Virus record (IMG/VR): IMGVR_UViG_3300011113_000787
Coordinates: 1 to 47,268 of that record
Source of the DNA: a virus
Lineage: Duplodnaviria; Heunggongvirae; Uroviricota; Caudoviricetes
Length of the DNA: 47,268 nucleotides
Strand: one strand, 5' to 3'
In this document: positions 10,053 to 24,969 of the stretch, piece by piece
Position numbering within the stretch: position 1 is the stretch's first letter
Layout of the letters: each line of letters starts with the position of its first letter
Made by a program: the position numbers and the translations under genes
The notes under the pieces: model-generated
Databases searched by the model: none
Seen by the model: the letters and a program-made list of their open reading frames with translations, nothing else
Told to the model about the DNA's origin: nothing

Positions 10053-10444
10053 GGGGAAGACATGGCATTGATTGGCGTGTGTAGGTATAAGTGGCACGTA
10101 GGAGCTGAATTAACTCCTTAAAAACTGATTTGAAACACAAACGGCAATACTTTTGCTAAAATGGCTGCTATCGGTTTAATCGCTGAAGAAGCTACAGTTG
10201 TTGCTTAATTAAGACACAACTACTCGGGTCGGTTAGGACATTAACCTAGGAACAGAAGTCCAATTTACGGGTCACAGGTCAGAGCTCGTTTAAAATAATT
10301 CTGAGACCAAGTTGTTTGTAGGTGGGGTTCTCACAAATATCAAACCTAATATTTCGGAACATTGAGAAACAATGTTGTAATAAACGTGTAGTCATTTATA
10401 GTTATCGCGAACAAGACTCGGGTTCGACCCCCGACTTCTCCACC
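10053..10444 (+). ncRNA. ssrA: tmRNA (transfer-messenger RNA)
   Basis: 5' GGGGAAG pairs with 3' CTTCTCC including G3.U70, discriminator A then CC; T-arm GGGTTCGACCCCC; internal tag ORF ending ...TVVA-TAA at 10208. Confidence 0.93.
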
Positions 10445-10479: not shown

Positions 10480-11127
10480 ATGTCGAACTCAAATAAGTCA
10501 AAAAAATATCATTTTATATACAAGACAACAAATCTCCTTAATAATAAATTTTACGTTGGAATGCATTCAACAACAAACCTGAACGATGGTTACATAGGGA
10601 GTGGAACTAATTTAAGATTTGCAATAAGAAAATACGGTCCGAATAATTTCAAATTTGAAATTCTCGAATGGTGTATCAATAGAGAAGAATTGATAAAAAG
10701 AGAAAAAGAAATTATAAACGAGAATTTCCTAAATGACCCGAATTGTTATAATTTGAAACCTGGTGGGACGGGCGGATTCAACAATCCAACTCACCAATAC
10801 AATTGTTCTAAAGCCGCAGGTATAAAACATAGAGAAATGTTAGAATGTGATGAAAATTATAGAAAAAAAATTTCAATTTCAAGAACAGAAACTAATAAAA
10901 AAAACCACAGTAATGGTAGGTTAAAATCAATTCAACAAATTTATTCTTGGGTTGGAAAAAAACACAAAGAAGAAACAAAGAAAAAAATATCTGAAAAAAA
11001 CTCTCTGAATCACTCAGGACAAAAAAACTCTCAATTTGGTACCAAATGGATTACCAATGGAAAACAAAATAAAAAAATAAAAAGTTCCGATTTACTACCT
11101 CAAGATTGGACATACGGTCGTGTGTAA
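10480..11127 (+). mobile_element. free-standing GIY-YIG homing endonuclease (Seg-like) with NUMOD3-like DNA-binding repeat
   Basis: FIYKTTNLLNNKFYVG, YIGSG and EKE motifs, and HKEETKKKISE; located 35 nt after the tmRNA. Confidence 0.85.
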
Positions 11128-11578: not shown

Positions 11579-13057
11579 ATGAAGTTTCTCTCAATTTTAA
11601 TAAAGGAAGGTCGTAAAGAAGATTTAAAGAAAAAATATTCAACTAAATTCAACGAAGAGGATTTAGAATTTATTTTGAACATTTCAGATTTACAAGATTT
11701 CAACCACAAATACACTGACTTTGTATTAAAAAATACGGATGGTGATGGGGAATTAGACACTTCTGAATTAGAAAAACTAATAGGTCTAATTAAGGATTTC
11801 GACAAATACCAATCTCAACTTCCCAAAAAGGATATAAATCAGTATGTGTCCTTGAACGAACTTGAGAAGGTTATTCTATACATCAGGGAAAAGAAGAAAC
11901 AAAAGGAATTAGAAAATCAGGTAGAAAAGATTTACGAGGACGATAAGTTTTTAGTTGTTAGACCAAAATCTCACCCCGCATCTTGTAAGTACGGTTCCAA
12001 TACTAAATGGTGCACCACTGCACAATCTCCTGACCATTTCCAAAGATATACATCAGGCAGTCAAGCACTTTACTACATAATAAACAAAGCCAATTCAACA
12101 AACAAAGATTATTCAAAAGTTGCTGTTCACATTGGGACTTTAGGAAACCAAATGTTTTGGGACTCAAAAGATACCGCAATGGGAGACAGAGAAGTTTCAA
12201 TTTTCAAATACGCATTCCCTGAAATTATGGATGCAATAGAAGAAAATTATAAAACTTTTAGAGTCTCAGCCGAAGAAAAACATTTGAATGAAATCTTTAA
12301 CTCTTTTGGAATTACAAAAAGAAGTGATAAAAAATTATTTGGTACTGAATCTCAATTAAGTGTTGTTATCGAAGGTTTTCAAACTATAAACGATTTAGGT
12401 CCAGGACACGCCGAGGCAGGCTTGGCAGTAATATTGGATAATGTCTTGATAGATGAATATCAAGTTTTTGTAACCTTTAAATCAAAGGATAGAGAAACTT
12501 TCGAAGCGAGTATTGGTTTCATGGGTAAAGACAATTATATCGAGGAAGATTATTTTATTGATTTAGGTTTAGAAGATTTTGGAATTGATGTGAAGTTTAA
12601 GCAGTTAAACACAACACAAAATACTGCAGAAGGTGTTAGGTCTTATGTGGCCACCAGGGTTTTAGATAAAGTCAAAGAAAATCCAAAACTCAGAGAAAAA
12701 ATTGTTGGTACATCAAGTTTTTTTAGACCATCATATGGTTACACTTTTGGTAGGAAGAAAGGTTGGATTGAAAAACTTGTGAAGTTTTTGGATTCAGGTA
12801 AAATAGGAACAAAACTTGATTTTCTTACCGACATAGGGTTCTTGAACAAAATTACCAAGGATGGTAAGACAATGTACCAAAGAACAAAAGACGGATTTGT
12901 AATGAAACCTCGTGACTTAAGAGGACAACATTCCTCATTTTTCGCAGCAGCTAAAAATGCGGGAATTTTAGGTTATAGAAAGGTTGGAAAAGATTTCCTT
13001 TTAATAAAAGGTCCAAACTTTAACGCCTTCAAAGAGGGGAAGCTCAAGGCACTTTAG
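11579..13057 (+). CDS. hypothetical protein with SxKYGxxTxWCT domain
   Basis: 492-aa ORF; motif shared with 45502..46503; TATTTATA at 11567-11574. Confidence 0.75.
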   Translation: MKFLSILIKEGRKEDLKKKYSTKFNEEDLEFILNISDLQDFNHKYTDFVLKNTDGDGELDTSELEKLIGLIKDFDKYQSQLPKKDINQYVSLNELEKVILYIREKKKQKELENQVEKIYEDDKFLVVRPKSHPASCKYGSNTKWCTTAQSPDHFQRYTSGSQALYYIINKANSTNKDYSKVAVHIGTLGNQMFWDSKDTAMGDREVSIFKYAFPEIMDAIEENYKTFRVSAEEKHLNEIFNSFGITKRSDKKLFGTESQLSVVIEGFQTINDLGPGHAEAGLAVILDNVLIDEYQVFVTFKSKDRETFEASIGFMGKDNYIEEDYFIDLGLEDFGIDVKFKQLNTTQNTAEGVRSYVATRVLDKVKENPKLREKIVGTSSFFRPSYGYTFGRKKGWIEKLVKFLDSGKIGTKLDFLTDIGFLNKITKDGKTMYQRTKDGFVMKPRDLRGQHSSFFAAAKNAGILGYRKVGKDFLLIKGPNFNAFKEGKLKAL

Positions 13058-14570: not shown

Positions 14571-14646
14571 GCGGAAGTAGCTCATTTGGTAGAGCGATAG
14601 CCTTCCAAGCTATAGGTGGCCAGTTCGAGCCTGGTCTTCCGCTCCA
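14571..14646 (+). tRNA. tRNA-Gly(TCC), CCA encoded
   Basis: Cloverleaf; anticodon arm ATAGC-CTTCCAA-GCTAT. Confidence 0.95.
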
Positions 14647-16979: not shown

Positions 16980-17074
16980 TTTTTTCTTTTTTTTGGTTAA
17001 TGTTTAATAACTATTCAAGACTATAAATATAGTACAACTTTTCTAAATCGTCAACTAGTAGGTTAAAAAAAGTG

Positions 17075-17159
17075 CGGAGAGTGCTGGATTCGAACCAGCG
17101 GGTCAGTTACCCGACCACGGTTTAGCAAACCGCTCCTTTAACCACTCAGGCAACTCTCC
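17075..17159 (-). tRNA. tRNA-Ser(GCT)
   Basis: Cloverleaf with long variable arm; GCGGT-TTGCTAA-ACCGT. Confidence 0.93.
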
Positions 17160-17164
17160 TCGTG

Positions 17165-17238
17165 TGTGAACGGTGGGATTCGAACCCACGACAACTAGCG
17201 CCACAAGCTAGTGCTCTACCAACTAAGCTACGTCCACC
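17165..17238 (-). tRNA. tRNA-His(GTG), G-1 present, discriminator A
   Basis: CTAGC-TTGTGGC-GCTAG. Confidence 0.92.
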
Positions 17239-17245
17239 ATGTTTG

Positions 17246-17317
17246 TTGCGATAGGTGGATTTGAACCACCGACAACTTGGATATGAATCAAGTGCTCTAC
17301 CCCTGAGCTATATCGCA
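17246..17317 (-). tRNA. tRNA with CAT anticodon (probable elongator Met)
   Basis: Loop TTCATAT; A31-C39 mismatch; no initiator features. Confidence 0.8.
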
Positions 17318-17323
17318 TTCATG

Positions 17324-17395
17324 AAGTCCTATAGGGACTCGAACCCCAACTCTTTTTGTCCGTAGCAAAATGTTTTTCCATTAAACTATAGGACC
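17324..17395 (-). tRNA. tRNA-Arg(ACG)
   Basis: TTTTG-CTACGGA-CAAAA. Confidence 0.9.
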
Positions 17396-17398
17396 CTG

Positions 17399-17469
17399 TT
17401 GTCGCACAAGGATTCGAACCTTGAAAAACAGAACCAAAATCTGTTGTGTTACCGTTACACCATACGACA
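17399..17469 (-). tRNA. tRNA-Gln(TTG)
   Basis: ACAGA-TTTTGGT-TCTGT. Confidence 0.92.
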
Positions 17470-17551
17470 GTATGGGACAGACCTAAGGAGACGTATTATT
17501 CTCTTCATTATCCTTGTACTTTAACACCATGGGAAGCGTGTGTCTGTCTTG

Positions 17552-17625
17552 TGGACCCCCACGGGCTCGAACCGTGGACCTAATGATTATGAGTCATTTG
17601 CTCTGACCTACTGAGCTAGGGGTCC
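17552..17625 (-). tRNA. tRNA with CAT anticodon (probable Ile2, lysidine type)
   Basis: AATGA-CTCATAA-TCATT; overall resemblance to ileX-type tRNAs. Confidence 0.8.
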
Positions 17626-17631
17626 AAAATG

Positions 17632-17713
17632 TGGGAGTAGCTGGACTCGAACCAACGAACTCGAAAGAGGGAAGATTTACAGTCTTCTGCCATTGCCACT
17701 AGGCGATACTCCC
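17632..17713 (-). tRNA. tRNA-Tyr(GTA)
   Basis: GAAGA-CTGTAAA-TCTTC with long variable arm. Confidence 0.93.
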
Positions 17714-17719
17714 AAATTG

Positions 17720-17792
17720 CACGGGTGGTAGGACTCGAACCTACAACTCCTAGTTTTGGAGACTAGTACTCTACCAATTGAGCTACACCCAT
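17720..17792 (-). tRNA. tRNA-Trp(CCA)
   Basis: CTAGT-CTCCAAA-ACTAG. Confidence 0.93.
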
Positions 17793-17797
17793 GTTTA

Positions 17798-18211
17798 TTA
17801 TTTCAAAAGCCAAGATGAGGATTGAATTTTATCACCCAAACCGTCGACCAATTTGATACCTAATTCATCACAGATTGGTTTTTCAGGTATAGTGTCGTTA
17901 TTTTGGTCACCTCCGTTTGCAAAGAACAACTCTACGTTTTCTTCAACCTCAGAGGCAATCATTCTCAACGTCTCACGAACCGTTCTGTCTTTATCGATAG
18001 ATAGTATGGTTTTATCTACCATCTTTAAACTATCGATAATTACCAATCTTTCGTCCTCATCTTGGAACTTTTTACTTCCTTTCAACTCACGTTGAAAATC
18101 GTTATTCACAATCACATAGAGTTTGTCTCCATGTTCTTTTGATTTGATAAAGTATTCAATATGTCCTTTATGGACAGGATTGAAATATCCACTTACGATT
18201 ACAACTTTCAT
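17798..18211 (-). CDS. cytidylyltransferase-like (HIGH-motif) nucleotidyltransferase
   Basis: VSGYFNPVHKGH and FANGGD motifs; start at MKVV (TAATG overlap). Confidence 0.85.
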   Translation of the reverse strand: MKVVIVSGYFNPVHKGHIEYFIKSKEHGDKLYVIVNNDFQRELKGSKKFQDEDERLVIIDSLKMVDKTILSIDKDRTVRETLRMIASEVEENVELFFANGGDQNNDTIPEKPICDELGIKLVDGLGDKIQSSSWLLK

Positions 18212-18765
18212 TATCCTTGTTTTTTTGTCCACTTACTTTTATCCAATAGGTCATCCCAATCTTCATACCCTTGTTCACGTGCATATTCATCGTTTTTTAT
18301 TCTTTGATACTTTTTTACGTTTTCAGGGTCTCTCATAGCTTCAGAGTTTTCAAAACCTAAAGATTTTGCACACTCCTCTTCACACCATCCATGAGAACCT
18401 ATTTCGATGTTTATTGGTAGGTCAGTTTCCAAAGATTCGATAAAATCTTCAAATTGACTTGCCGCTTCATAAGGCATTGTATAGATTCCCTCAGACACTT
18501 GATATCCGCTATCACTTTCTCTGTCGAATATTTCAATCCTACCCATTCTATACTTCTCACCCATCAAACTGAATACACCATATCCAACAGTAGAATAACT
18601 GAATCTACCTGGTGTACTAACACCTTGCATATCAACACATCTCGGATTTGCCTCCATGTAATGTGCCATATGGTCAACTAGCATTTCGTCAGTAAGTTCT
18701 TTTCCTTCTTGTTTTCTTCGGATGTTACTCAGGAACCATAACAAATCCGCTCTATTGATTTTCAT
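18211..18765 (-). CDS. hypothetical protein
   Basis: 184-aa ORF with TAAATTTG box at 18770-18777. Confidence 0.75.
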   Translation of the reverse strand: MKINRADLLWFLSNIRRKQEGKELTDEMLVDHMAHYMEANPRCVDMQGVSTPGRFSYSTVGYGVFSLMGEKYRMGRIEIFDRESDSGYQVSEGIYTMPYEAASQFEDFIESLETDLPINIEIGSHGWCEEECAKSLGFENSEAMRDPENVKKYQRIKNDEYAREQGYEDWDDLLDKSKWTKKQG

Positions 18766-18781
18766 ATCACAAATTTACGCT

Positions 18782-19069
18782 TTATATATTGAAATTACTA
18801 AACTTTAATCCCCACATTAAGGAAATCATCCCCATCTGAGTTTCAGCATACTTCTTATTCATTTTGAGTTCTTTGATGAGGTATTTCTGACCCCAATCTT
18901 TCCACTCATCGTTCTGTTCAACAGTCATAGTCCATTGAGTATACCAATCATCTTTACGGTCTTTAACATCATCATATGTAACTGAATGTCCTGCAATTTC
19001 AAACATTTTATTAATCATATCAACGACCATTTTTTCTCTCTTCTGTTCTAATGATAGTCTTTTTTTCAT
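18782..19069 (-). CDS. hypothetical protein
   Basis: ORF with ATGA coupling to the upstream HAD gene. Confidence 0.7.
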   Translation of the reverse strand: MKKRLSLEQKREKMVVDMINKMFEIAGHSVTYDDVKDRKDDWYTQWTMTVEQNDEWKDWGQKYLIKELKMNKKYAETQMGMISLMWGLKFSNFNI

Positions 19070-19590
19070 CGTTCTAATTTTTTTATACATTCATCAATTT
19101 TGTCTCTAAGTCTTCCACCTTGACCCCAATCTCCATCTACTTGTACATGTCTCCACTTTGGTACTCTTGGTTTCATCCACTTATATTGTCCGTCAAGTTT
19201 CATATCATCAATTGAAATCCAATTTGAGATTTTATTATCTTTCACCCACTTTGTGATTTCAGCCGCTCTTTCCCACTCAATTGACGGTCTACTTAATTTA
19301 TTCCATAAGTCCTGATGGGTGGTGATATCAACAATTGGAGCAGTTACACCGTAGTATTGGAAGATTCTTTTCAATTGAATGAAACTGAAATGTTTTCTCC
19401 AATCCGAACTCACAACGAGACTTGCATTGGTTTCATCACAAATCTTTTGTAGTGCTTGGCAATCCTCCTCAATCCAAGGGTATGGAATTGTGAAGGTCTT
19501 GGAAGCCTCATTGAGCGTAACTCTACCGTCACCCCACGTTCCCCATGCAAGTGGTCCATCTACATCAATAAAGATAATTTTACGTCTCAT
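19066..19590 (-). CDS. HAD domain protein resembling the 'Swiss army knife' RNA-repair HAD (HAD_SAK-like)
   Basis: IFIDVDGPL, VVSSDWR and ISIDD motifs; embedded in the tRNA array. Confidence 0.7.
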   Translation of the reverse strand: MRRKIIFIDVDGPLAWGTWGDGRVTLNEASKTFTIPYPWIEEDCQALQKICDETNASLVVSSDWRKHFSFIQLKRIFQYYGVTAPIVDITTHQDLWNKLSRPSIEWERAAEITKWVKDNKISNWISIDDMKLDGQYKWMKPRVPKWRHVQVDGDWGQGGRLRDKIDECIKKLER

Positions 19591-19604
19591 AACATTTTAT
19601 TTTG

Positions 19605-19678
19605 TTGGAATGGGCGGGCTCGAACCGCCGACATCTACCGTATCAGGATAGCGCTCTGACCAACTGAGCTACATTCCA
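19605..19678 (-). tRNA. tRNA-Ile(GAT)
   Basis: CTATC-CTGATAC-GGTAG. Confidence 0.92.
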
Positions 19679-19684
19679 TTATTG

Positions 19685-19756
19685 AGGTCAGTACAGGAAT
19701 CGAACCTGTGTAAATAGTTTTGCAGACTACCGCCTAAACCACTCGACCAACTGACC
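19685..19756 (-). tRNA. tRNA-Cys(GCA)
   Basis: GTAGT-CTGCAAA-ACTAT. Confidence 0.93.
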
Positions 19757-19762
19757 TTATTG

Positions 19763-19834
19763 TGACCCCTGATGGATTCGAACCATCGACTTCTTCATTA
19801 AAAGTGAAGAGCTCTTCCACTGAGCTAAGAGGTC
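19763..19834 (-). tRNA. tRNA-Lys(TTT)
   Basis: CTTCA-CTTTTAA-TGAAG. Confidence 0.93.
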
Positions 19835-19839
19835 AGGTG

Positions 19840-19912
19840 TGGTAACGGTCAGAATCGAACTGACGACACCTTGCTCTTCAGGCAAGTGCTCTACCAACTG
19901 AGCTACGTCACC
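19840..19912 (-). tRNA. tRNA-Phe(GAA)
   Basis: CTTGC-CTGAAGA-GCAAG. Confidence 0.93.
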
Positions 19913-19983
19913 AAGTTAAAATTGAGGTCGCCCACACTTGTTCGGGGCGGAGTCTTACGACAACCTTCAACATCCCCTCAATT

Positions 19984-20199
19984 TTAATAAACTTCAATAT
20001 CTTCCAAAGTTACATCTTCTCCTTGAGTATGCCTATAAACTGTATCAAAAAATTGTCCTAACAATTTATAGTCTTCATCAATCATTTTACAAAAATCAAA
20101 TGCTGGTATTGTACCATTGATTTGACCTTGTACTACCTTATCATACTTGGCATCTGGTTTATATTCAAAAACCACATTACCTCTAAAAACATATTTCAT
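19984..20199 (-). CDS. hypothetical protein
   Basis: 71-aa ORF coupled to 20196..20603. Confidence 0.65.
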   Translation of the reverse strand: MKYVFRGNVVFEYKPDAKYDKVVQGQINGTIPAFDFCKMIDEDYKLLGQFFDTVYRHTQGEDVTLEDIEVY

Positions 20200-20603
20200 A
20201 TATTACAATTTTTTTTGACTTTAACAATGTCCCACTCGTAGTCACCGTTTCTGTCGAGTTCGAAATAATAATGACCACCAGTGAATTTTGCCCTTAGTCT
20301 AAACATCCAAAAAATGGTCTTTTTCAACTCATAAATTATGGATTCATTACCCGACCAACCCATGGTATGGAGTTCAAATAGTCCATCTTCTTCTTTGTAA
20401 GCAAAGTCCCCATAATTCCAAAGAGACTTAACAAATTCAACCAACTCGGACTGATTATCCGCACCGAAGAACTTTCCTATGGAAACCTCATCGTTTTCCA
20501 CATTATGACTCCAATTTTTAATATAATTCAAAGCCTCTTCGGTGGGATAACCATCTTCATCAAACAATTCCTCAGGGAATGGGTAATCTAATATTTTTTC
20601 CAT
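20196..20603 (-). CDS. hypothetical protein
   Basis: 135-aa ORF. Confidence 0.75.
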   Translation of the reverse strand: MEKILDYPFPEELFDEDGYPTEEALNYIKNWSHNVENDEVSIGKFFGADNQSELVEFVKSLWNYGDFAYKEEDGLFELHTMGWSGNESIIYELKKTIFWMFRLRAKFTGGHYYFELDRNGDYEWDIVKVKKNCNI

Positions 20604-20619
20604 AACTATTTTTTTTTTG

Positions 20620-20692
20620 TAGTCCCTGTAGGAATCGAACCTACGACACCTTGCATGTAAGGCAAGTGCTCTTCCAACTGAGCTAAAGGACT
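20620..20692 (-). tRNA. tRNA-Val(TAC)
   Basis: CTTGC-CTTACAT-GCAAG. Confidence 0.93.
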
Positions 20693-20695
20693 GTG

Positions 20696-20785
20696 AATGA
20701 TGGCACCATCAACTCTCTTGATGCGTTTACGGCAGGGATTAGTAACCTTATCCTTTCGGAATTCGTCCTCTCTTATGCCATCATT
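20696..20785 (-). ncRNA. candidate 90-nt structured RNA between tRNA-Glu and tRNA-Val
   Basis: Perfect 10-bp terminal helix AATGATGGCA/TGCCATCATT plus internal hairpins. Confidence 0.5.
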
Positions 20786-20787
20786 TG

Positions 20788-20859
20788 TAGCCCCGCACGG
20801 ACTCGAACCGAAATCTCCACCGTGAAAGGGTGGCGTCCTAACCTTTAGACGACGGGGCC
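20788..20859 (-). tRNA. tRNA-Glu(TTC)
   Basis: CCACC-CTTTCAC-GGTGG. Confidence 0.93.
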
Positions 20860-20911
20860 AAGAATTACAAATTTACAACCAATATTTCAAAGAACCAAAA
20901 ACACCTAAAAT

Positions 20912-20950
20912 AAAAAAACCCCGAACTTCATTTCTGTAGTCCGAGGTTTG
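20912..20950 (-). terminator. intrinsic terminator upstream of tRNA-Glu
   Basis: AAACCUCGGACU/AGUUCGGGGUUU hairpin plus U-tract. Confidence 0.75.
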
Positions 20951-20982
20951 TATATATAACTCTTCAGGAATTATAGGCTATC

Positions 20983-21063
20983 TCATGAGACTACAGCGCG
21001 TGTCTTAAACCAACAAATCTCTTGTTGTTTACTATAGACCATATGACGCACTATTGTTCTCAT
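20983..21063 (-). CDS. 26-aa micro-ORF MRTIVRHMVYSKQQEICWFKTRAVVS
   Basis: Manual translation; TAATTATA box 6 nt upstream and a terminator downstream. Confidence 0.45.
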   Translation of the reverse strand: MRTIVRHMVYSKQQEICWFKTRAVVS

Positions 21064-21207
21064 TGTTATTATAATTACTACAATTATAGTAAAAGTTTTT
21101 AAAAAACAAATATTTTATTTTTTTAAAATAGTTCTACCTAATCTCCATCCTTCAGGTATTTTATCGCCCTTATAAATTTTTTTAGATTCGATTTCATTAG
21201 TTCAAGG

Positions 21208-21288
21208 TACCCCAAGAGAGACTCGAACTCTCACGACCGAAGTCATTGGTTCCTAAGACCAACGCGGCTACCGTTACGCCATCGGGGT
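21208..21288 (-). tRNA. tRNA-Leu(TAG)
   Basis: TTGGT-CTTAGGA-ACCAA with long variable arm. Confidence 0.92.
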
Positions 21289-21292
21289 AAGT

Positions 21293-21383
21293 ATCATATC
21301 AGACAGGCATTCTACTCCCAGCTCCGAGGAATTGTATCTAATTTAACCCATCTCACCGCTGTGTGGGTACCTGAAGATATGAT
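21293..21383 (-). ncRNA. candidate 91-nt multibranched RNA between tRNA-Arg and tRNA-Leu
   Basis: ATCATATC/GATATGAT terminal helix; CAGGTA/TGCCTG and ACCCA/TGGGT inner stems. Confidence 0.5.
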
Positions 21384-21386
21384 TTG

Positions 21387-21458
21387 TAGTCCCGACAAGA
21401 ATCGAACTTGTATCTGGAGATTAGAAGTCACCCGTTCTATCCGTTGAACTACAGGACC
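21387..21458 (-). tRNA. tRNA-Arg(TCT)
   Basis: GGTGA-CTTCTAA-TCTCC (one U.U mismatch). Confidence 0.88.
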
Positions 21459-21462
21459 AAAG

Positions 21463-21549
21463 TACCTCAGGTGGGACTTGAACCCACACGGACATTTTCT
21501 GTCCACAAGATTTTAAGTCTTGCGCGTATACCGATTTCGCCACCAAGGT
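21463..21549 (-). tRNA. tRNA-Leu(TAA)
   Basis: CAAGA-CTTAAAA-TCTTG with long variable arm. Confidence 0.93.
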
Positions 21550-21591
21550 ATAATACAAAAATAAGGGATTTAGGTTAAAAAAACAAATAAT

Positions 21592-22299
21592 TTAGAAGTC
21601 TTCTTCGAAAACAGTATCTCTTCCTGTTTCTTCAATATTAGATGTATGATAAAGGATTACTTCTTTCCTATCCAAGTCGATTTCGAAATACCCTTGAGAG
21701 CCCTCGTTGATTTCCCAACCACCAAAATTACTTTCCAAAAGATTGTAACAGTAATCTTGAACCTGTGCAGGTAAGTCATTTCCGTTTGTAAATGAATCTT
21801 CAATGTATCCGCTATCACCACTTCCGTTATAATCAATCCTCAGAACTCTATCTTCGATTTCATCATCATTTTCCAATACATCGAATAGTTCCATTAGGTT
21901 TTCATCATCACCATCTTCTTCCAAGTTTCTGCTAATGGTTTCGGTATCACTAGTTTCATAGTAATTGTAATCATGAGAAACGGAAATCGTTGAATTATCA
22001 CAATCAATATCAATATCAATTCTTTCCCAATTAACATCATCTACATCAGGTTCACTAACCAAATCATTATCACTTACGTAAGCAATGATTTTTTTTAATA
22101 TTTCTTTCAATCCATCAGGAAGCTCCGCGGTATAGTTATTTGAAAAATGAGATATGCGATTCCAATTATAATCATCCTTATCAAATTGGCCATACTCCTT
22201 ATCAAATTCTACAGTCCCATTACTCATACCCAATGAACCTAGGTATCTACAAATTCTTTGTAAGTATTTTTTATCTTCTAATGTTAATAAATTGCTCAT
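21592..22299 (-). CDS. hypothetical protein with C-terminal DUF6878-like region
   Basis: YNGSGDSG...GGWEINEGSQG; start moved to MSNLL, 5 nt after TATTTATA. Confidence 0.6.
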   Translation of the reverse strand: MSNLLTLEDKKYLQRICRYLGSLGMSNGTVEFDKEYGQFDKDDYNWNRISHFSNNYTAELPDGLKEILKKIIAYVSDNDLVSEPDVDDVNWERIDIDIDCDNSTISVSHDYNYYETSDTETISRNLEEDGDDENLMELFDVLENDDEIEDRVLRIDYNGSGDSGYIEDSFTNGNDLPAQVQDYCYNLLESNFGGWEINEGSQGYFEIDLDRKEVILYHTSNIEETGRDTVFEEDF

Positions 22300-22312
22300 A
22301 ATTTTATAAATA

Positions 22313-22666
22313 TCAGTCTTCAAATTCTAATTTAACTGTTTTAAGCATCCAACTCGGTCTTGTGTTAGATGATATATTATTTACCCACTCTTTTGCTGAT
22401 GGTATATAATTGTTACAATCTTCCTTTACATGTTGTTCTCCAACATATCTAGTATAAACTATTTTGCCATCACTATTTTTGAACTCCTTACCAAACCTTT
22501 TTTCCATTTCGAATATCCCTTCAGAATGATGTCTAAACATTCTATGAAGGGAATCACCAAACCAACCTTTGGTTTCATCTAACCATTCATGTAGATGAAT
22601 ATAATCTTCAGGTTTTCCTCCAAACTTTTTTGCTGAACTTTTTGCGTGTAGATTAGGGTGTGCCAT
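22313..22666 (-). CDS. DUF6915-like His-rich protein
   Basis: MAHPNLHAKSSAKKFGG...HEWLD...HRMFRHHSEG...EQHVKED. Confidence 0.65.
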   Translation of the reverse strand: MAHPNLHAKSSAKKFGGKPEDYIHLHEWLDETKGWFGDSLHRMFRHHSEGIFEMEKRFGKEFKNSDGKIVYTRYVGEQHVKEDCNNYIPSAKEWVNNISSNTRPSWMLKTVKLEFED

Positions 22667-23252
22667 TTTTCCAAGAATCTTTATGGTAATCGAATAGTTG
22701 AAATTGTTCTATAAAATTCTCATGAACGAAATTAGCCAATTCCTCATTGTAAAATTCTTTCCAATTTTTCCTTTTTTCGTTCATCTGGTTTTCGAATTCA
22801 GTTTTGTATCTATTGTTTTTTATATTGAATTCAAATTGTTCACTTATCTTGGGGTCTGAAAAATCAATAAAACTGATTGACTTTATATCTTCTTCAAAAT
22901 TCTCAAGTCTTATAAATTTATTAAACGGTCTTCCTAATTTTAGAATATCCTTATGATAGAAGAATTGATATGAATCACAAAATATAAAACTTTGTAATGA
23001 TTTATAGACCCAGCTATCAAATTTTAAACTGAAGTTGTTAATGTGATGTGAATAAAGATGAAAGATACTAACTAATCGAGAATATGGATTTCTAACATTT
23101 GATATGAAAAAGGAATCCTGTTCGTTTTTATTAAAATAAAAACTGTGGTCTCCTATTTGAAAACCCAAAACAAGAAGTATTTCTTTAACAGAACGAGTCC
23201 CTGTCCTTTTTGGGGTAAACCAATAACAGTTGTATTTTTCTGAAAAGTTCAT
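22653..23252 (-). CDS. sulfotransferase-like protein
   Basis: PKRTGTRS and VRNPYSRLVS motifs; paralog-like to 13328..13933. Confidence 0.65.
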   Translation of the reverse strand: MNFSEKYNCYWFTPKRTGTRSVKEILLVLGFQIGDHSFYFNKNEQDSFFISNVRNPYSRLVSIFHLYSHHINNFSLKFDSWVYKSLQSFIFCDSYQFFYHKDILKLGRPFNKFIRLENFEEDIKSISFIDFSDPKISEQFEFNIKNNRYKTEFENQMNEKRKNWKEFYNEELANFVHENFIEQFQLFDYHKDSWKNGTP

Positions 23253-23485
23253 TACAATATTTTAGAATTATTTCTCCTAGCTTCTTCCGCCTCTTTGTAT
23301 ATTCTAACCCAAGTGAGGAATACATCCACAGGTGCGAGTATCCAACACATAATCAATAACCCCAATGTGTCCAAACCAGGAGATATACCTAAACCACCCG
23401 CCATTACATCTCGATTCCATTTCCTTATAGACATAAAGATACAATAAGATAAACAAATCAAATAATAAGACCAAAAAACTTGCAT
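23252..23485 (-). CDS. small membrane protein
   Basis: Two hydrophobic segments. Confidence 0.65.
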   Translation of the reverse strand: MQVFWSYYLICLSYCIFMSIRKWNRDVMAGGLGISPGLDTLGLLIMCWILAPVDVFLTWVRIYKEAEEARRNNSKIL

Positions 23486-23501
23486 ATATTAAAATTTTTA
23501 G

Positions 23502-23574
23502 TGGAGAATGAGGGAGTCGAACCCACGACAACTTGAATGCAAATCAAGTGCTCTACCAACTGAGCTAATTCCCC
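23502..23574 (-). tRNA. tRNA-Ala(TGC)
   Basis: G3.U70; CTTGA-TTTGCAT-TCAAG. Confidence 0.92.
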
Positions 23575-23631
23575 TAAATAGGTGGGACTAACCTACTTCA
23601 GGTTTGTACACCACCCATTAAAGTCCTTTTG

Positions 23632-23704
23632 AGCCTCCTATCGGAATCGAACCAATAACCTACGCATTACAAGTGCGTTGCTCTACCAGTTGAGCTAAGG
23701 AGGC
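23632..23704 (-). tRNA. tRNA-Thr(TGT)
   Basis: ACGCA-CTTGTAA-TGCGT. Confidence 0.93.
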
Positions 23705-23754
23705 AATTTGTGGGTGTATGCTCATCACATACTTACTGGGCCCCACCACCGATG

Positions 23755-23827
23755 AGCGGAAGACCAGGCTCGAACTGGCCACCCCAATCTTGGCAAGATT
23801 GTGCTCTACCGAATGAGCTACTTCCGC
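23755..23827 (-). tRNA. tRNA-Gly(GCC)
   Basis: CAATC-TTGCCAA-GATTG. Confidence 0.93.
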
Positions 23828-23932
23828 GTATAGGTTTTTCGTCGACAGATTAGCCCAACAGACCGTCGTCATCTATTGGATTTTGGACACGGGTACACAA
23901 AAATGTGCGTTACAACCTATAAACCCTACCAG

Positions 23933-24003
23933 CGGTCCCACGGGGAATCGAACCCCGCACCTCGGCGCGACAAGCCGATATTATACCGATTAACTATAAG
24001 ACC
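23933..24003 (-). tRNA. tRNA-Asp(GTC)
   Basis: TCGGC-TTGTCGC-GCCGA. Confidence 0.92.
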
Positions 24004-24005
24004 AT

Positions 24006-24196
24006 AAAACAGGTTTTTTGTGCCCTTTTACACATCATGACCAACATATTCCTATATTGGTGGTTACATTTTCGTCGTTGGTTAATTACTCCTGACTTAT
24101 AGTAAACACTACCCTCACCGCTCTGATACCGCGAATCAAGACGGCGTCTTTGGGATTCATATACCGAGGGGTTCCACCTCAGTCTTCACCTGTTTT
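24006..24196 (-). ncRNA. candidate 191-nt structured RNA between tRNA-Asn and tRNA-Asp
   Basis: 9-bp terminal helix AAAACAGGT/ACCTGTTTT and several internal hairpins; no convincing ORF. Confidence 0.55.
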
Positions 24197-24198
24197 TG

Positions 24199-24270
24199 CG
24201 TCCCCTCAAGGATTCGAACCTTGGACTTCTTCGTTAACAGCGAAGAGCTCTACCGCTGAGCTAAGGAGAC
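24199..24270 (-). tRNA. tRNA-Asn(GTT)
   Basis: CTTCG-CTGTTAA-CGAAG. Confidence 0.93.
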
Positions 24271-24780
24271 AAATTTATTTTTATATTCCAAGACCTTATC
24301 AAATATTTCATTTTTGTATCTTGAATGAATATATTGATGATGTGTTGGACACAAAGGTATTAAATTTTCAGGAGAATTATTATTGCGATTTTCATCAAAA
24401 TGATGAACAGTAACAATTTTTTCTTCTCCACAAACTATACATTTCTTTTCATGGTGTTCAAAACATGTTGACCTATATGAATGGTCTCTCCAGTTAGGAT
24501 TATTTTCACCACTCCTGAAATGGGTATTTGAACAAGAATAAGAACAAGTTGTTTTTTCCAACTTTCCCCCATTTCTTGTTTCGAACTCTTTACCGCAAAC
24601 GGGACAAATTTTTTTAATAATTTGATATTTAACATCTCTTTTTCTCAGATGCAATATATTCAAATTATTTTTTTCAACATATTCAAAAAACTTCTTACGG
24701 GACCTTCCGTTATCGTACCCATAACTTTTTTTTATTGCTTCCGCAATAGTTTGTGAATTTTTAATAAAATTTTCTATCAT
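24250..24780 (-). mobile_element. HNH endonuclease (probable homing endonuclease) inside the tRNA array
   Basis: CPVCG and CSYSCS Zn motifs; CIVCG..VHHFD...N..ENLIPLCPTHH. Confidence 0.82.
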
Positions 24781-24844
24781 ATTAATAAATATTCACAATT
24801 GTCGGTAAAATAAATTTTGGGTCAAAACTTTTTTTACAGACTTG

Positions 24845-24917
24845 TAGAGTAGACAGGACTCGAACCTACACGCACTTGCTCCCAAAGCAAGGGACCTACC
24901 TATTGGTCAACTACTCT
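24845..24917 (-). tRNA. tRNA-Pro(TGG)
   Basis: CTTGC-TTTGGGA-GCAAG. Confidence 0.9.
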
Positions 24918-24933
24918 ATTTTACAAAACTAAA

Positions 24934-24969
24934 AAAAAAACCCCGAACTTTCAAGGTTCAGGGTTTTTT
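24934..24969 (-). terminator. intrinsic terminator upstream of tRNA-Pro
   Basis: AAAAAACCCUGAAC/GUUCGGGGUUUUUU hairpin plus U-tract. Confidence 0.8.

What the first reader, a model, noticed from the sequence alone, without database searches (positions are those of the whole stretch)
17476..24196. Array of helix-closed RNAs interleaved with the tRNA genes: candidate family of novel phage ncRNAs excised by tRNA processing
Seen: most neighbouring tRNAs are only 2-8 nt apart, but eight spacers are 37-191 nt, richer in GC than ordinary intergenic DNA, and lack credible ORFs. Each is closed by a perfect 5-10-bp terminal helix close to the flanking tRNA or gene ends (17476-17548, 19918-19985, 20696-20785, 21293-21383, 23585-23626, 23710-23746, 23829-23921, 24006-24196). 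They are not similar to each other in sequence. Known: T4 encodes stable non-tRNA species in its tRNA cluster, and RNase P plus 3' trimming would release such spacers. Inference: a multi-ncRNA cassette (decoys for defence nucleases, ribozymes, protein sponges or tRNA mimics). This is the best candidate for an undescribed system here.
Basis: partly seen in the sequence, partly recalled or inferred. Interest (0 to 1): 0.82.

Follow-up and report, generated by a model that had tools for sequence, protein, structure and literature searches.

The report
Structured small RNAs inside phage tRNA array
The long gaps between tRNA genes of this uncultivated giant phage hold a set of unrelated, conserved, folded small RNAs. 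They are probably made together with the tRNAs and cut free by the host's tRNA-trimming enzymes, much like the still unexplained rnaC/rnaD RNAs of phage T4.

Summary
On the minus strand, 23 tRNA genes mostly lie 2-7 nt apart. Eight gaps of 49-194 nt hold GC-richer sequence without credible ORFs. Six of the eight are closed by a perfect 7-10-bp terminal helix (each P<0.01 against shuffles). None matches Rfam 15.

About 40 related arrays come from uncultivated ~320-kb T4-like phages of freshwater Bacteroidota. They show discrete modules: the same tRNA-tRNA slot is empty in some phages and filled in others, sometimes by unrelated helix-closed elements.

Four elements are real RNA families:
- S8 (194 nt): 18 of 53 pairs carry compensatory changes and 98.5% of cells are paired.
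- S1 and S4: 97% and 90% identical between phages whose tRNAs are about 72% and whose proteins are about 45% identical.
- S7: a pseudoknot whose helices are replaced whole in a relative.

Every copy points the same way as nearby tRNAs. Some S8 and S1 copies stand alone. S2, S3, S5 and S6 have only single-lineage support.

Best reading: these are small structured RNAs co-transcribed with tRNAs and released by host RNase P and RNase Z/BN, as for T4 rnaC/rnaD. Their function is unknown. They are new RNA families, a new variant of a known kind. Processing and expression are inferred, not shown.

The parts
17470..17550 (-). S1, an 81-nt spacer between tRNA-Met and tRNA-Gln. A 7-bp closing helix (17542-17548 with 17476-17482) encloses a variable 5' hairpin, an invariant single strand AAGGAUAAUGA, and a 6-bp hairpin with loop AUAAUACG.
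   Evidence: Found in 26 IMG/VR contigs (25, one), in long (75 nt) and short (66 nt) forms. On 10 sequences 96.9% of cells are paired against 34-53% for slid controls, and 4 pairs carry compensatory changes. It is 97% identical in phages whose tRNAs are 71-74% identical to the window's. It precedes tRNA-Gln in 12 of 18 contexts.
19913..19983 (-). S2, a 71-nt helix-closed stretch between the stop codon of ORF 19984-20199 and tRNA-Phe.
   Evidence: The terminal helix is 8 bp (P=0.003) and the fold z-score is -2.8. No homologue was found in any fetched locus. It may simply cap the 3' end of the upstream mRNA.
20693..20786 (-). S3, a 94-nt spacer between tRNA-Glu and tRNA-Val. A 10-11-bp closing helix encloses three hairpins.
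   Evidence: Helix P<0.0002; z -3.6, with centroid equal to the MFE structure. No homologue was found. The slot is 6 nt in L006 and holds an unrelated 281-nt insert in L011. A 269-nt contig of RNA library X1 spans tRNA-Glu, S3 and tRNA-Val with no mismatch.
21289..21385 (-). S4, a 97-nt spacer between tRNA-Arg(tct) and tRNA-Leu(tag). An outer closing helix, an inner helix, long-range CAGC/GCUG and GAG/CUC helices and a possible pseudoknot surround a conserved core.
   Evidence: On 10 distinct sequences, 7 of 16 predicted pairs carry compensatory changes. The outer helix differs by copy: ATCATATC/GATATGAT here, AAATGT/ACATTT in L004, GAAAATATT/AATATTTTC in L174, ACACA/TGTGT in L236. The core is 90% identical where tRNAs are about 71% identical. 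In most relatives it follows tRNA-Trp.
23575..23630 (-). S5, a 56-nt spacer between tRNA-Thr and tRNA-Ala. It forms one extended hairpin (AUGGGUGG.../...CCACCUAU).
Evidence: z -2.6. The only homologue is in the close relative L094, at 89%. The slot is 5 nt in L006.
23705..23753 (-). S6, a 49-nt spacer between tRNA-Gly(gcc) and tRNA-Thr. A small hairpin sits inside a 5-bp helix.
   Evidence: z +0.2; helix P=0.11. Homologues are in L003 (98%) and L036/L037 (80%), with one compensatory and one wobble change in the inner hairpin. This is weak support.
23828..23931 (-). S7, a 104-nt spacer between tRNA-Asp and tRNA-Gly(gcc). It has an 8-bp closing helix, hairpin 1, and hairpin 2 whose loop pairs downstream (an H-type pseudoknot).
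   Evidence: In the 75%-identical L005 copy all three helices are kept with different letters. The closing helix is TGTAGGTT/AACCTACA. Hairpin 2 is CCAATCA/TGATTGG instead of CCAATAGA/TCTGTTGG. The pseudoknot is TTCGCA/TGCGAA instead of CGACGG/CTGTCG. The slot is 5 nt in L003. Only two full sequences are known.
24004..24197 (-). S8, a 194-nt spacer between tRNA-Asn and tRNA-Asp. Nine helix segments form five arms inside a 7-9-bp closing helix, with long invariant junctions.
   Evidence: Covariance model R1 finds 11 copies (145-230 bits) and no paralogue among other spacers. On 10 sequences 98.5% of cells are paired against 36-47% slid, 18 of 53 pairs carry compensatory changes, and 0 of 500 shuffles reach this (seed alignment). 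The sense strand folds with z -3.2 and the antisense with -0.9. In relatives the flanks are Asn/Asp, Asp/Gly, Thr/Gly or tmRNA/Glu, or the copy stands alone.
20868..20899 (-). Bacteroidota-type promoter (TTTG, then TAAATTTG) 8 nt before tRNA-Glu. It would drive the tRNA-Glu-S3-tRNA-Val unit.
   Evidence: The motif TTTG-N15-23-TAnnTTTG occurs 17 times in the window against 5.4 expected. This copy is conserved in 10 distinct relatives.
21556..21587 (-). Same promoter type 6 nt before tRNA-Leu(taa). It would drive tRNA-Leu(taa), tRNA-Arg(tct), S4 and tRNA-Leu(tag).
   Evidence: No terminator-like site lies between it and S4.
24935..24969 (-). Intrinsic terminator just upstream of tRNA-Pro. It marks the upstream boundary of the array.
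   Evidence: 14-bp stem followed by a T-run.

Best explanation
The long spacers are genes for several unrelated small structured RNAs that ride inside the phage's tRNA operons.

Shown:
- They lie on the tRNA strand.
- They are discrete modules that are present or absent between the same tRNA pairs in related phages.
- At least S1, S4, S7 and S8 keep their helices through compensatory changes.
- S1 and S4 change more slowly than the phage's own tRNAs.

Inferred:
- They are transcribed with the tRNAs from host-type promoters.
- They are freed passively by host enzymes: RNase P cuts at the 5' end of the next tRNA, and an RNase Z/BN-type (or RNase E) cut falls behind the CCA-less previous tRNA.
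- The closing helix starts 0-2 nt after the tRNA tail. It brings the two ends together, keeps the insert from disturbing the folding of neighbouring tRNAs, and shields the freed RNA from exonucleases.
- The freed RNAs then act in trans. Given their multi-helix junctions with invariant unpaired nucleotides, they most likely act as protein-binding RNAs (decoys or RNP scaffolds directed at host machinery) rather than as base-pairing regulators.

S2, S3, S5 and S6 may be younger or lineage-specific members, or mere structured spacers.
For: Structure:
- S8: 18 of 53 pairs with compensatory change, 98.5% of cells paired, 0 of 500 shuffles.
- S1. S4.
- S7: three helices replaced whole, including a pseudoknot.

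Strand:
- S8 has invariant G-U pairs. Its sense strand folds with z -3.2 against -0.9 for the antisense.
- In 44 distinct contexts of S1, S4 and S8, every tRNA within 1.5 kb is on the element's strand.

Modularity:
- The same slot is 2-9 nt or filled, and unrelated helix-closed inserts occupy one slot in different phages.
- Near-identical S8 lies between Asn and Asp here but between Asp and Gly in L094.

Constraint:
- S1 is 97% and S4 90% identical where tRNAs average 71-74% (highest 86%) and a neighbouring protein 44-46%.

Closing helices:
- Six of eight are significant here.
- Among 30 independent spacer clusters of relatives, 10 reach P<=0.05 against 1.5 expected.
- The outer helix of S4 differs in sequence between copies while the core is kept.

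Co-transcription:
- Promoters lie directly before tRNA-Glu and tRNA-Leu(taa), with no terminator before S3 or S4.
- An RNA-library contig bridges tRNA-Glu, S3 and tRNA-Val.

Host processing:
- All 23 array tRNAs lack an encoded CCA.
- Three complete relatives encode no CCA-adding enzyme and no RNase Z-like protein.

Precedent:
- T4 rnaC and rnaD abut tRNA-Arg. rnaC folds with its ends paired next to a T-arm-like hairpin.
- From my own knowledge, RNase BN was first defined by its need for CCA-less T4 tRNAs.
Against: No RNA 5' or 3' ends were seen. The RNA-run evidence is contigs only, and DNA carry-over is not excluded.

S2 and S3 have no homologues. S5 and S6 have only close homologues or weak support.

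Closing helices are frequent but not universal in relatives: 20 of 30 clusters are not significant.

S1 sits before tRNA-Gln in 12 of 18 contexts, which would also fit a cis role.

The very high identity of S1 and S4 could reflect recent lateral exchange between phages rather than selection.

No partner protein, target or catalytic motif was found, so the trans function is a guess.
Confidence: 0.6

Rival explanations
1. The spacers are structured spacers without a function of their own. They are leftovers of inserted DNA (for example decayed homing-endonuclease genes or shuffled cassettes). They survive in a tRNA operon only if they fold back on themselves and so do not disturb tRNA folding and processing.
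For: Slots show presence or absence polymorphism. Homing endonuclease genes sit in the array (HNH 24250-24780) and beside the tmRNA. A remnant of an endonuclease C-terminus lies in 21130-21200. S2 and S3 have no relatives, and S5 and S6 are barely above chance.
Against: S1 and S4 are more conserved than any tRNA of the array. S8 has long invariant unpaired junctions and 18 covarying pairs. S8 and S1 also occur as stand-alone units outside tRNA flanks.
Confidence: 0.15
2. They are cis-acting processing or dosage elements. Each one tunes the maturation, order of cleavage or stability of the adjacent tRNA (for example S1 as a structured leader of tRNA-Gln). S2 would be the 3' cap of the upstream mRNA.
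For: S1 precedes tRNA-Gln in 12 of 18 contexts, and that tRNA-Gln is the best-conserved tRNA of the array at 85-86%. S2 begins at a stop codon and ends 7 nt before tRNA-Phe. The elements abut tRNA ends within 0-7 nt.
Against: S4 and S8 sit next to many different tRNAs, next to tmRNA, or next to none. Arrays without the element keep the same tRNAs 2-9 nt apart. A cis role does not need 190 nt with invariant junctions.
Confidence: 0.15
3. They are DNA-level mobile elements of the MITE type, and the terminal helices are terminal inverted repeats.
For: Terminal inverted repeats are present, insertion is polymorphic, and the same family occurs in different slots.
Against: The repeats differ in sequence between copies of one family while the core is kept (S4). 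No target-site duplication appears when filled and empty slots are compared. Internal helices covary and include G-U pairs that exist on one strand only. The elements are always co-oriented with tRNAs. No transposase is nearby.
Confidence: 0.04
4. They are decayed tRNA genes, or tRNA or Y-RNA mimics.
For: S1 measures 73 nt from helix to helix with a 7-bp closing helix. S3 folds as a four-way junction. T4 rnaC carries a T-arm-like hairpin.
Against: No tRNA-model hit falls in any spacer even at E<=10, and the YrlA model hits only true tRNAs at 18-24 bits against a cut-off of 69. The array already holds tRNAs for all 20 amino acids. G000 and three complete relatives have no Ro/TROVE and no RtcB gene. 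The supported helices of S1, S4 and S8 are not cloverleaves.
Confidence: 0.05

Closest known systems
Phage T4 rnaC and rnaD (species 1 and species 2 stable RNAs of the tRNA cluster)
   Same: They are small non-tRNA RNAs (139 and 119 nt) lying 1-6 nt from a tRNA gene on the tRNA strand of a T4-type phage. The cluster also holds a homing endonuclease gene. rnaC pairs its two ends. Their function is still unknown (PMC3014915; PMC9697503).
   Different: There is no sequence similarity. T4 has two such RNAs at the end of the cluster. This phage has up to eight interleaved between tRNAs, and its relatives carry many further unrelated families that come and go slot by slot. No T-arm-like hairpin was seen in the window's elements.
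tRNA-spacer by-products used as RNAs in their own right: E. coli 3'ETS-leuZ and internal spacers that sponge sRNAs (own knowledge, Lalaouna et al. 2015)
   Same: The RNA is released from a polycistronic tRNA precursor by the normal tRNA-processing nucleases and then acts in trans.
   Different: Those spacers are short, little structured and act by base pairing with Hfq-dependent sRNAs. The elements here are multi-helix folds with closing helices, and no complementary target is known.
tRNA-linked small RNAs of eukaryotes and their viruses: murid herpesvirus 68 tRNA-miRNA units, plant tRNA-snoRNA dicistrons (own knowledge)
   Same: They use tRNA processing (RNase P and RNase Z) as a release mechanism for a passenger RNA.
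   Different: They belong to a different domain of life, have RNA polymerase III promoters inside the tRNA, and carry passengers of known classes.
GOLLD and ROOL large structured RNAs of phages and prophages
   Same: They are phage-borne, highly structured RNAs of unknown function, often next to tRNA genes (own knowledge).
   Different: Those RNAs are over 500 nt and have Rfam families. None matches here. The elements here are 49-194 nt.
Bacterial Y RNA / YrlA with Ro (Rsr)
   Same: The ends are paired in a closing stem. The RNA is modular, and some mycobacteriophage and actinophage tRNA clusters carry Ro-like genes (the hit to Arthrobacter phage Atuin).
   Different: The YrlA model does not match the spacers. 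G000 and three complete relatives lack TROVE and RtcB genes.

Membership tests
tRNA (Rfam RF00005) | Cloverleaf covariance-model score of at least 29 bits | tested here: not met
   All 24 tRNA genes score 51-72 bits. No spacer gives a tRNA hit even at E<=10.
T4-type small stable RNAs of the tRNA cluster (rnaC/rnaD) | Non-tRNA RNA gene abutting tRNA genes, on the same strand, in a T4-like phage | tested here: met
   An earlier scan note (e1-1838832) calls the genome T4-related; I did not retest that.
T4-type small stable RNAs of the tRNA cluster (rnaC/rnaD) | Sequence or structural homology to T4 rnaC or rnaD | tested here: not met
   blastn with word size 7 gives only 7-10-nt chance matches to the spacers (E>1) and nothing at E<=0.01 in about 240 loci.
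T4-type small stable RNAs of the tRNA cluster (rnaC/rnaD) | Accumulates as a discrete stable RNA cut out of the tRNA precursor | tested here: inconclusive
   An RNA-library contig bridges tRNA-Glu, S3 and tRNA-Val. Contig depth over S8 in run X1 is 45-49 against 2-9 on neighbouring ORF contigs. Contigs show no ends, and DNA carry-over is possible.
Y RNA / YrlA (Rfam RF02553) | Model score of at least 69 bits, and a Ro (TROVE) partner | tested here: not met
   The best hits are 18-24 bits and lie on true tRNAs. G000 and three complete relatives have no TROVE gene.
Any described RNA family (Rfam 15, 4227 models, including riboswitches, self-cleaving ribozymes, 6S, SRP, GOLLD/ROOL) | Match at the gathering score, or any match at E<=10 inside a spacer | tested here: not met
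   for the window. for eight related loci, where only tRNA and tmRNA match.
Intrinsic terminator | GC-rich hairpin directly followed by a U-run | tested here: not met
   No terminator-like site lies in S1-S8. Some stand-alone homologues of S8 and S1 do end in a closing helix plus T6-T8.
MITE or IS-derived element | Family-specific terminal inverted repeats and a target-site duplication | tested here: not met
   The terminal helices differ between copies of S4. No duplication appears at filled against empty slots.

The most novel reading that the evidence does not exclude
The tRNA arrays of this clade of ~320-kb Bacteroidota phages serve as a plug-in expression and processing platform for a large, exchangeable repertoire of structured RNA effectors. 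Dozens of unrelated families would each carry its own closing helix. Some, such as S1 and S4, are held more constant than the phage's own tRNAs because they dock onto invariant host machinery, for instance as decoys for tRNA-targeting defence nucleases or as RNP scaffolds for host takeover. That would make them an RNA counterpart of protein anti-defence islands.
Probability: 0.3. Interest if true: 0.85.

Novelty: new variant of a known kind. Interest (0 to 1): 0.66.

Why it matters
T4's rnaC and rnaD have been known for about fifty years without a function. Part of the reason is that there were only two of them and little comparative data.

This clade offers many independent families in the same genomic niche:
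- One (S8) has covariation support as strong as that of a curated Rfam family.
- Two (S1, S4) evolve more slowly than tRNAs.
- The slots show clear presence or absence polymorphism.

That turns 'why do phages put non-tRNA RNAs in tRNA operons?' into a testable question, through processing assays, pull-downs and structure probing. It adds at least four RNA families absent from Rfam 15, from the GenBank phage records of the INPHARED collection and from GTDB genomes. It also suggests a design rule for passenger RNAs in polycistronic tRNA transcripts: a closing helix flush with the tRNA borders.

Tried and rejected
- Rfam at gathering score and at E<=10 gave nothing in the spacers. Eight related loci gave only tRNA and tmRNA.
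- Y-RNA/Ro idea: G000 and three complete relatives have no TROVE and no RtcB gene.
- A phage-encoded CCA-adding enzyme or RNase Z was not found.
- T4 rnaC and rnaD share no sequence similarity with the spacers.
- blastn in distant mode found no match for S1, S4 or S8 in 50,697 GenBank phage records.
- The exact cores of S8 and S1 are absent from GTDB species genomes. These were exact-match scans only, so diverged bacterial copies are not excluded.
- The search for related loci with ORF 20196-20603 found no relatives.
- One IMG/VR scan was wasted on a mistyped S1 pattern.
- The 15-nt S4 pattern was too short and returned mostly chance hits, which were filtered by blastn.
- The gapped S7 pattern returned three chance hits and no new member.
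- Model R1 found no hidden S8 paralogue among other spacers.
- The supplements of the IMG/VR structured-RNA catalogue (PMC10690425) are not held. I could not check whether these families are among its 8495 unnamed candidates.
- The 346-nt gap 20860-21205 is not an RNA element. It holds a micro-ORF, a terminator and a promoter.
- A conserved peptide in S1 (SD-like AAGGA followed by AUG) was considered and rejected. The stop position is not conserved, and the changes are compensatory for a hairpin.
- The promoter-like match at 24270-24303 overlaps the first base of tRNA-Asn and is probably not its promoter.
- RNA runs: parts of the array without contig cover carry no meaning.

Full report
**Setting.** The window is the first 47 kb of a 111-kb IMG/VR virus record estimated to be 37% complete. 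Its GC content is 34.6%. Earlier notes of this scan call it a T4-related jumbo phage of freshwater Bacteroidota; I did not retest that. The nearest named phages are Flavobacterium phages, and only weakly so. ARAGORN and Rfam agree on a tmRNA (10053-10444, +), one tRNA-Gly on the plus strand, and 23 tRNA genes on the minus strand from 24917 to 17074. These tRNAs cover all 20 amino acids.

**The observation.** Read on the minus strand, ten tRNA-tRNA gaps are 2-7 nt. Seven are 49-194 nt, and an eighth helix-closed stretch (S2) lies between an ORF stop and tRNA-Phe. Perfect terminal helices of 7-10 bp, within 12 nt of both ends, occur in S1, S2, S3, S4, S7 and S8. Each has P between <0.0002 and 0.008 against 5000 shuffles. 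The 5-bp helices of S5 and S6 are at chance level. Spacer GC is 0.39-0.49, against 0.17-0.32 in the other non-coding stretches of the array. The eight spacers are unrelated to one another. The finding as described is therefore correct. It holds the tail of a decayed homing-endonuclease gene, a conserved 26-codon micro-ORF behind a phage-type box, a terminator, and a Bacteroidota-type promoter 8 nt before tRNA-Glu.

**No known family.** No spacer matches any of the 4227 Rfam 15 families, even at E<=10. Eight related loci yield only tRNA and tmRNA. Ro/TROVE, RtcB, CCA-adding enzyme and RNase Z-like genes are absent from this record and from three complete ~320-kb relatives.

**Relatives show modules.** A protein encoded inside the array (21592-22323, DUF6878) retrieved 80 IMG/VR loci, about 40 of them with tRNA arrays. 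The order of tRNAs is largely kept, but the gaps are not:
- Asp to Gly(gcc) is 104 nt here and 5 nt in L003.
- Glu to Val is 94 nt here, 6 nt in L006 and 281 nt of unrelated sequence in L011.
- Met to Gln is 81 nt here and 4 nt in L006.
- Trp to Tyr is 5 nt here but 132-325 nt elsewhere.
- Arg(tct) to Leu(tag) holds S4 here, an unrelated 95-nt helix-closed insert in L003 and 9 nt in L005.

No target-site duplication appears at filled against empty slots. Among 30 independent spacer clusters of 40-200 nt, 10 have a terminal helix with P<=0.05 (1.5 expected) and 7 have P<=0.01. Helix closure is therefore a frequent trait of inserts in these arrays, though not a universal one.

**S8 (24004-24197).**
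- Its invariant 20-mer occurs in 15 IMG/VR contigs. It is absent from 185,579 GTDB species genomes and from GenBank phages.
- Nine distinct sequences give an RNAalifold structure of 53 pairs in nine helix segments (five arms inside a closing helix), 13 of them with compensatory changes.
- Covariance model R1 finds 11 copies at 145-230 bits. Two of them were not in the seed. It finds no paralogue among other spacers.
- On ten sequences 98.5% of cells pair, against 36-47% when partners are slid. Eighteen pairs have changes on both sides, and no shuffle of 500 reaches the observed values. That alignment was fitted to the model, which favours the structure; the seed alignment shows the same.
- Several G-U pairs are invariant. 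The sense strand folds far better than the antisense strand (z -3.2 against -0.9). The structure therefore belongs to an RNA made in the tRNA direction.
- Long junction stretches are invariant.
- Context varies: Asn/Asp (here and L008), Asp/Gly(gcc) in the near-identical L094, Thr/Gly(tcc) in L030, tmRNA/tRNA-Glu in four contigs. It heads a tRNA array with a TAnnTTTG-like box upstream and a T8 run after the closing helix in L098.

**S1 (17470-17550).**
- Twenty-six contigs hold it, in a long and a short form.
- The 7-bp closing helix and a 6-bp hairpin are kept through compensatory changes: GACAGAC, GACAAAC or AACAGAC with matching partners, and AAGAGA, AGAAGA or AGAGGA with matching partners. 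Cells paired are 96.9% against 34-53% slid.
- The unpaired stretch AAGGAUAAUGA and the loop AUAAUACG never vary.
- An SD-plus-AUG reading was rejected, because the stop is not conserved and the changes are those of a hairpin.
- S1 precedes tRNA-Gln in 12 of 18 contexts.

**S4 (21289-21385).** Ten distinct sequences give 16 predicted pairs, 7 with compensatory changes. A further TAC/GUA to UGG/CCA change hints at a pseudoknot. The outermost helix has four unrelated sequences in four contexts while the 70-nt core is kept. This is the clearest sign that pairing of the ends, not their sequence, is selected.

**S7 (23828-23931).** Only one full relative is known (L005, 75% identity). In it the closing helix, hairpin 2 and a loop-to-downstream pseudoknot are all maintained with different letters.

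**S2, S3, S5, S6.** S5 and S6 have only close or weak relatives. S2 and S3 have none. Their status rests on single-sequence folding (z -2.8 and -3.6) and on the terminal helices.

**Rate of change.** Between the window and L015, L022 or L038:
- the DUF6878 protein is 44-46% identical;
- orthologous tRNAs average 71-74%, with a maximum of 86% for tRNA-Gln;
- S1 is 97% and the S4 core 90% identical.

Either almost every nucleotide is under selection, or the modules were exchanged recently between lineages. I cannot separate the two. Both readings exclude neutral junk.

**Expression and processing (inferred).**
- Promoters of the Bacteroidota type (TTTG, then TAnnTTTG) lie 8 nt before tRNA-Glu and 6 nt before tRNA-Leu(taa). 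The motif is three times over-represented in the window, and the first copy is conserved in relatives.
- No terminator-like site lies inside the tRNA-S-tRNA runs.
- Every array tRNA lacks an encoded CCA. All 23 carry discriminator plus C, and 19 of them then A. The phages encode no CCA-adding enzyme or RNase Z. Host enzymes must therefore cut behind each tRNA and add CCA, as established for the CCA-less tRNAs of T4 (RNase BN; my own knowledge).
- Such cuts, together with RNase P at the next tRNA, would free each spacer exactly. The closing helices begin 0-2 nt after the tRNA tail in S1, S3, S4 and S8.
- A freshwater metatranscriptome (run X1) holds a 269-nt contig identical to 20600-20868, bridging tRNA-Glu, S3 and tRNA-Val. 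Its contig depth over S8 is 45-49, against 2-9 for neighbouring ORF contigs. These are contigs: they show no ends, and DNA carry-over is possible. I count this only as a weak hint.

**Comparison with the known.** The closest case is T4. There rnaD and rnaC follow tRNA-Arg at 1 and 6 nt, and segB, a homing endonuclease gene, sits inside the cluster. rnaC folds with paired ends next to a T-arm-like hairpin. Their roles are still unknown (PMC3014915; PMC9697503). There is no sequence similarity to the window's elements. The arrangement here is also different in degree: many interleaved, exchangeable families rather than two terminal ones. A catalogue of 8495 unnamed structured-RNA candidates from IMG/VR exists (PMC10690425). 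It may contain some of these families, but I could not check that. Full-text searches found no description of helix-closed RNAs interleaved in phage tRNA arrays.

**Verdict.** At least four new structured RNA families ride in this tRNA array. Release by tRNA processing is the most economical mechanism but is unproven. The function is open.

Noticed in passing
window 20860-21205 (- strand): The 346-nt gap between tRNA-Leu(tag) and tRNA-Glu holds four things. First, the C-terminal remnant of a homing-endonuclease-like ORF (...IPEGWRLGRTILKK*). Second, a 26-codon micro-ORF (MRT...QQE.CW...) a few nt behind a TAATTAT/TATTTAT-type box, conserved in relatives. Third, a terminator. Fourth, a conserved TTTG...TAAATTTG promoter 8 nt before tRNA-Glu.
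   Followed up: partly
window 10053-10444 (+) and 10480-11127 (+): ARAGORN reports the tmRNA tag as AEEATVVA. Read in frame, and compared with relatives' tags (GNTFAKMAALGL...), the reading frame more likely gives the 21-residue tag GNTFAKMAAIGLIAEEATVVA. A GIY-YIG-type homing endonuclease gene follows the tmRNA directly. In four related contigs that slot (tmRNA to tRNA-Glu) holds the S8 RNA instead.
   Followed up: partly
window 24250-24780 (-): A free-standing HNH endonuclease ORF lies between tRNA-Pro and tRNA-Asn. The same slot is 5-13 nt in L003, L005 and L008, while L003 has a 585-nt insert one slot further on. tRNA and tmRNA borders look like hot spots for homing-endonuclease insertion, as with segB in T4.
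   Followed up: partly
window 17074-24917 (-), all 23 tRNA genes: None encodes CCA. Every one carries discriminator + C, and 19 of 23 then A (N-C-A rather than N-C-C-A). Only the plus-strand tRNA-Gly(tcc) at 14571 encodes CCA. This may be a conserved processing signal.
   Followed up: no
L022:12925-13056, L006:10822-10962 and about 20 other loci: A ~130-nt element ('b', AGGUUGAUUGGGGAA ... CUCCUUUCC) follows tRNA-Trp in most related arrays but is absent from the 111 kb held for this genome. It ends in a hairpin that pairs a perfect Shine-Dalgarno-like AAAGGAG with an anti-SD-like CUCCUUU. It is not in Rfam.
   Followed up: partly
L003:7113-7177; L011:14617-14723; L011:14207-14531; L015:14035-14086: Further unrelated helix-closed inserts lie between tRNAs in relatives: 65 nt with a 9-bp closing helix, 107 nt with 10 bp, and 52 nt with 12 bp. 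One 325-nt gap holds three such units in a row.
   Followed up: no
window 17798-18232, 19066-19590, 21592-22666 (-): Protein genes interleaved with the tRNA blocks include a cytidylyltransferase-like protein, a HAD domain of the 'Swiss Army Knife' RNA-repair type (PF18143), DUF6878 and DUF6915. This is a possible RNA-repair or tRNA-maintenance context.
   Followed up: partly
L099 (IMGVR_UViG_3300045125_000071, 251 kb): 660-728 and 12007-12192: A more distant large phage carries diverged S1 and S8 copies about 11 kb apart. The S8 copy has no tRNA within 1.5 kb, and the S1 copy has only an atypical tRNA-like call about 1.3 kb away. Both families can therefore exist as stand-alone genes.
   Followed up: partly
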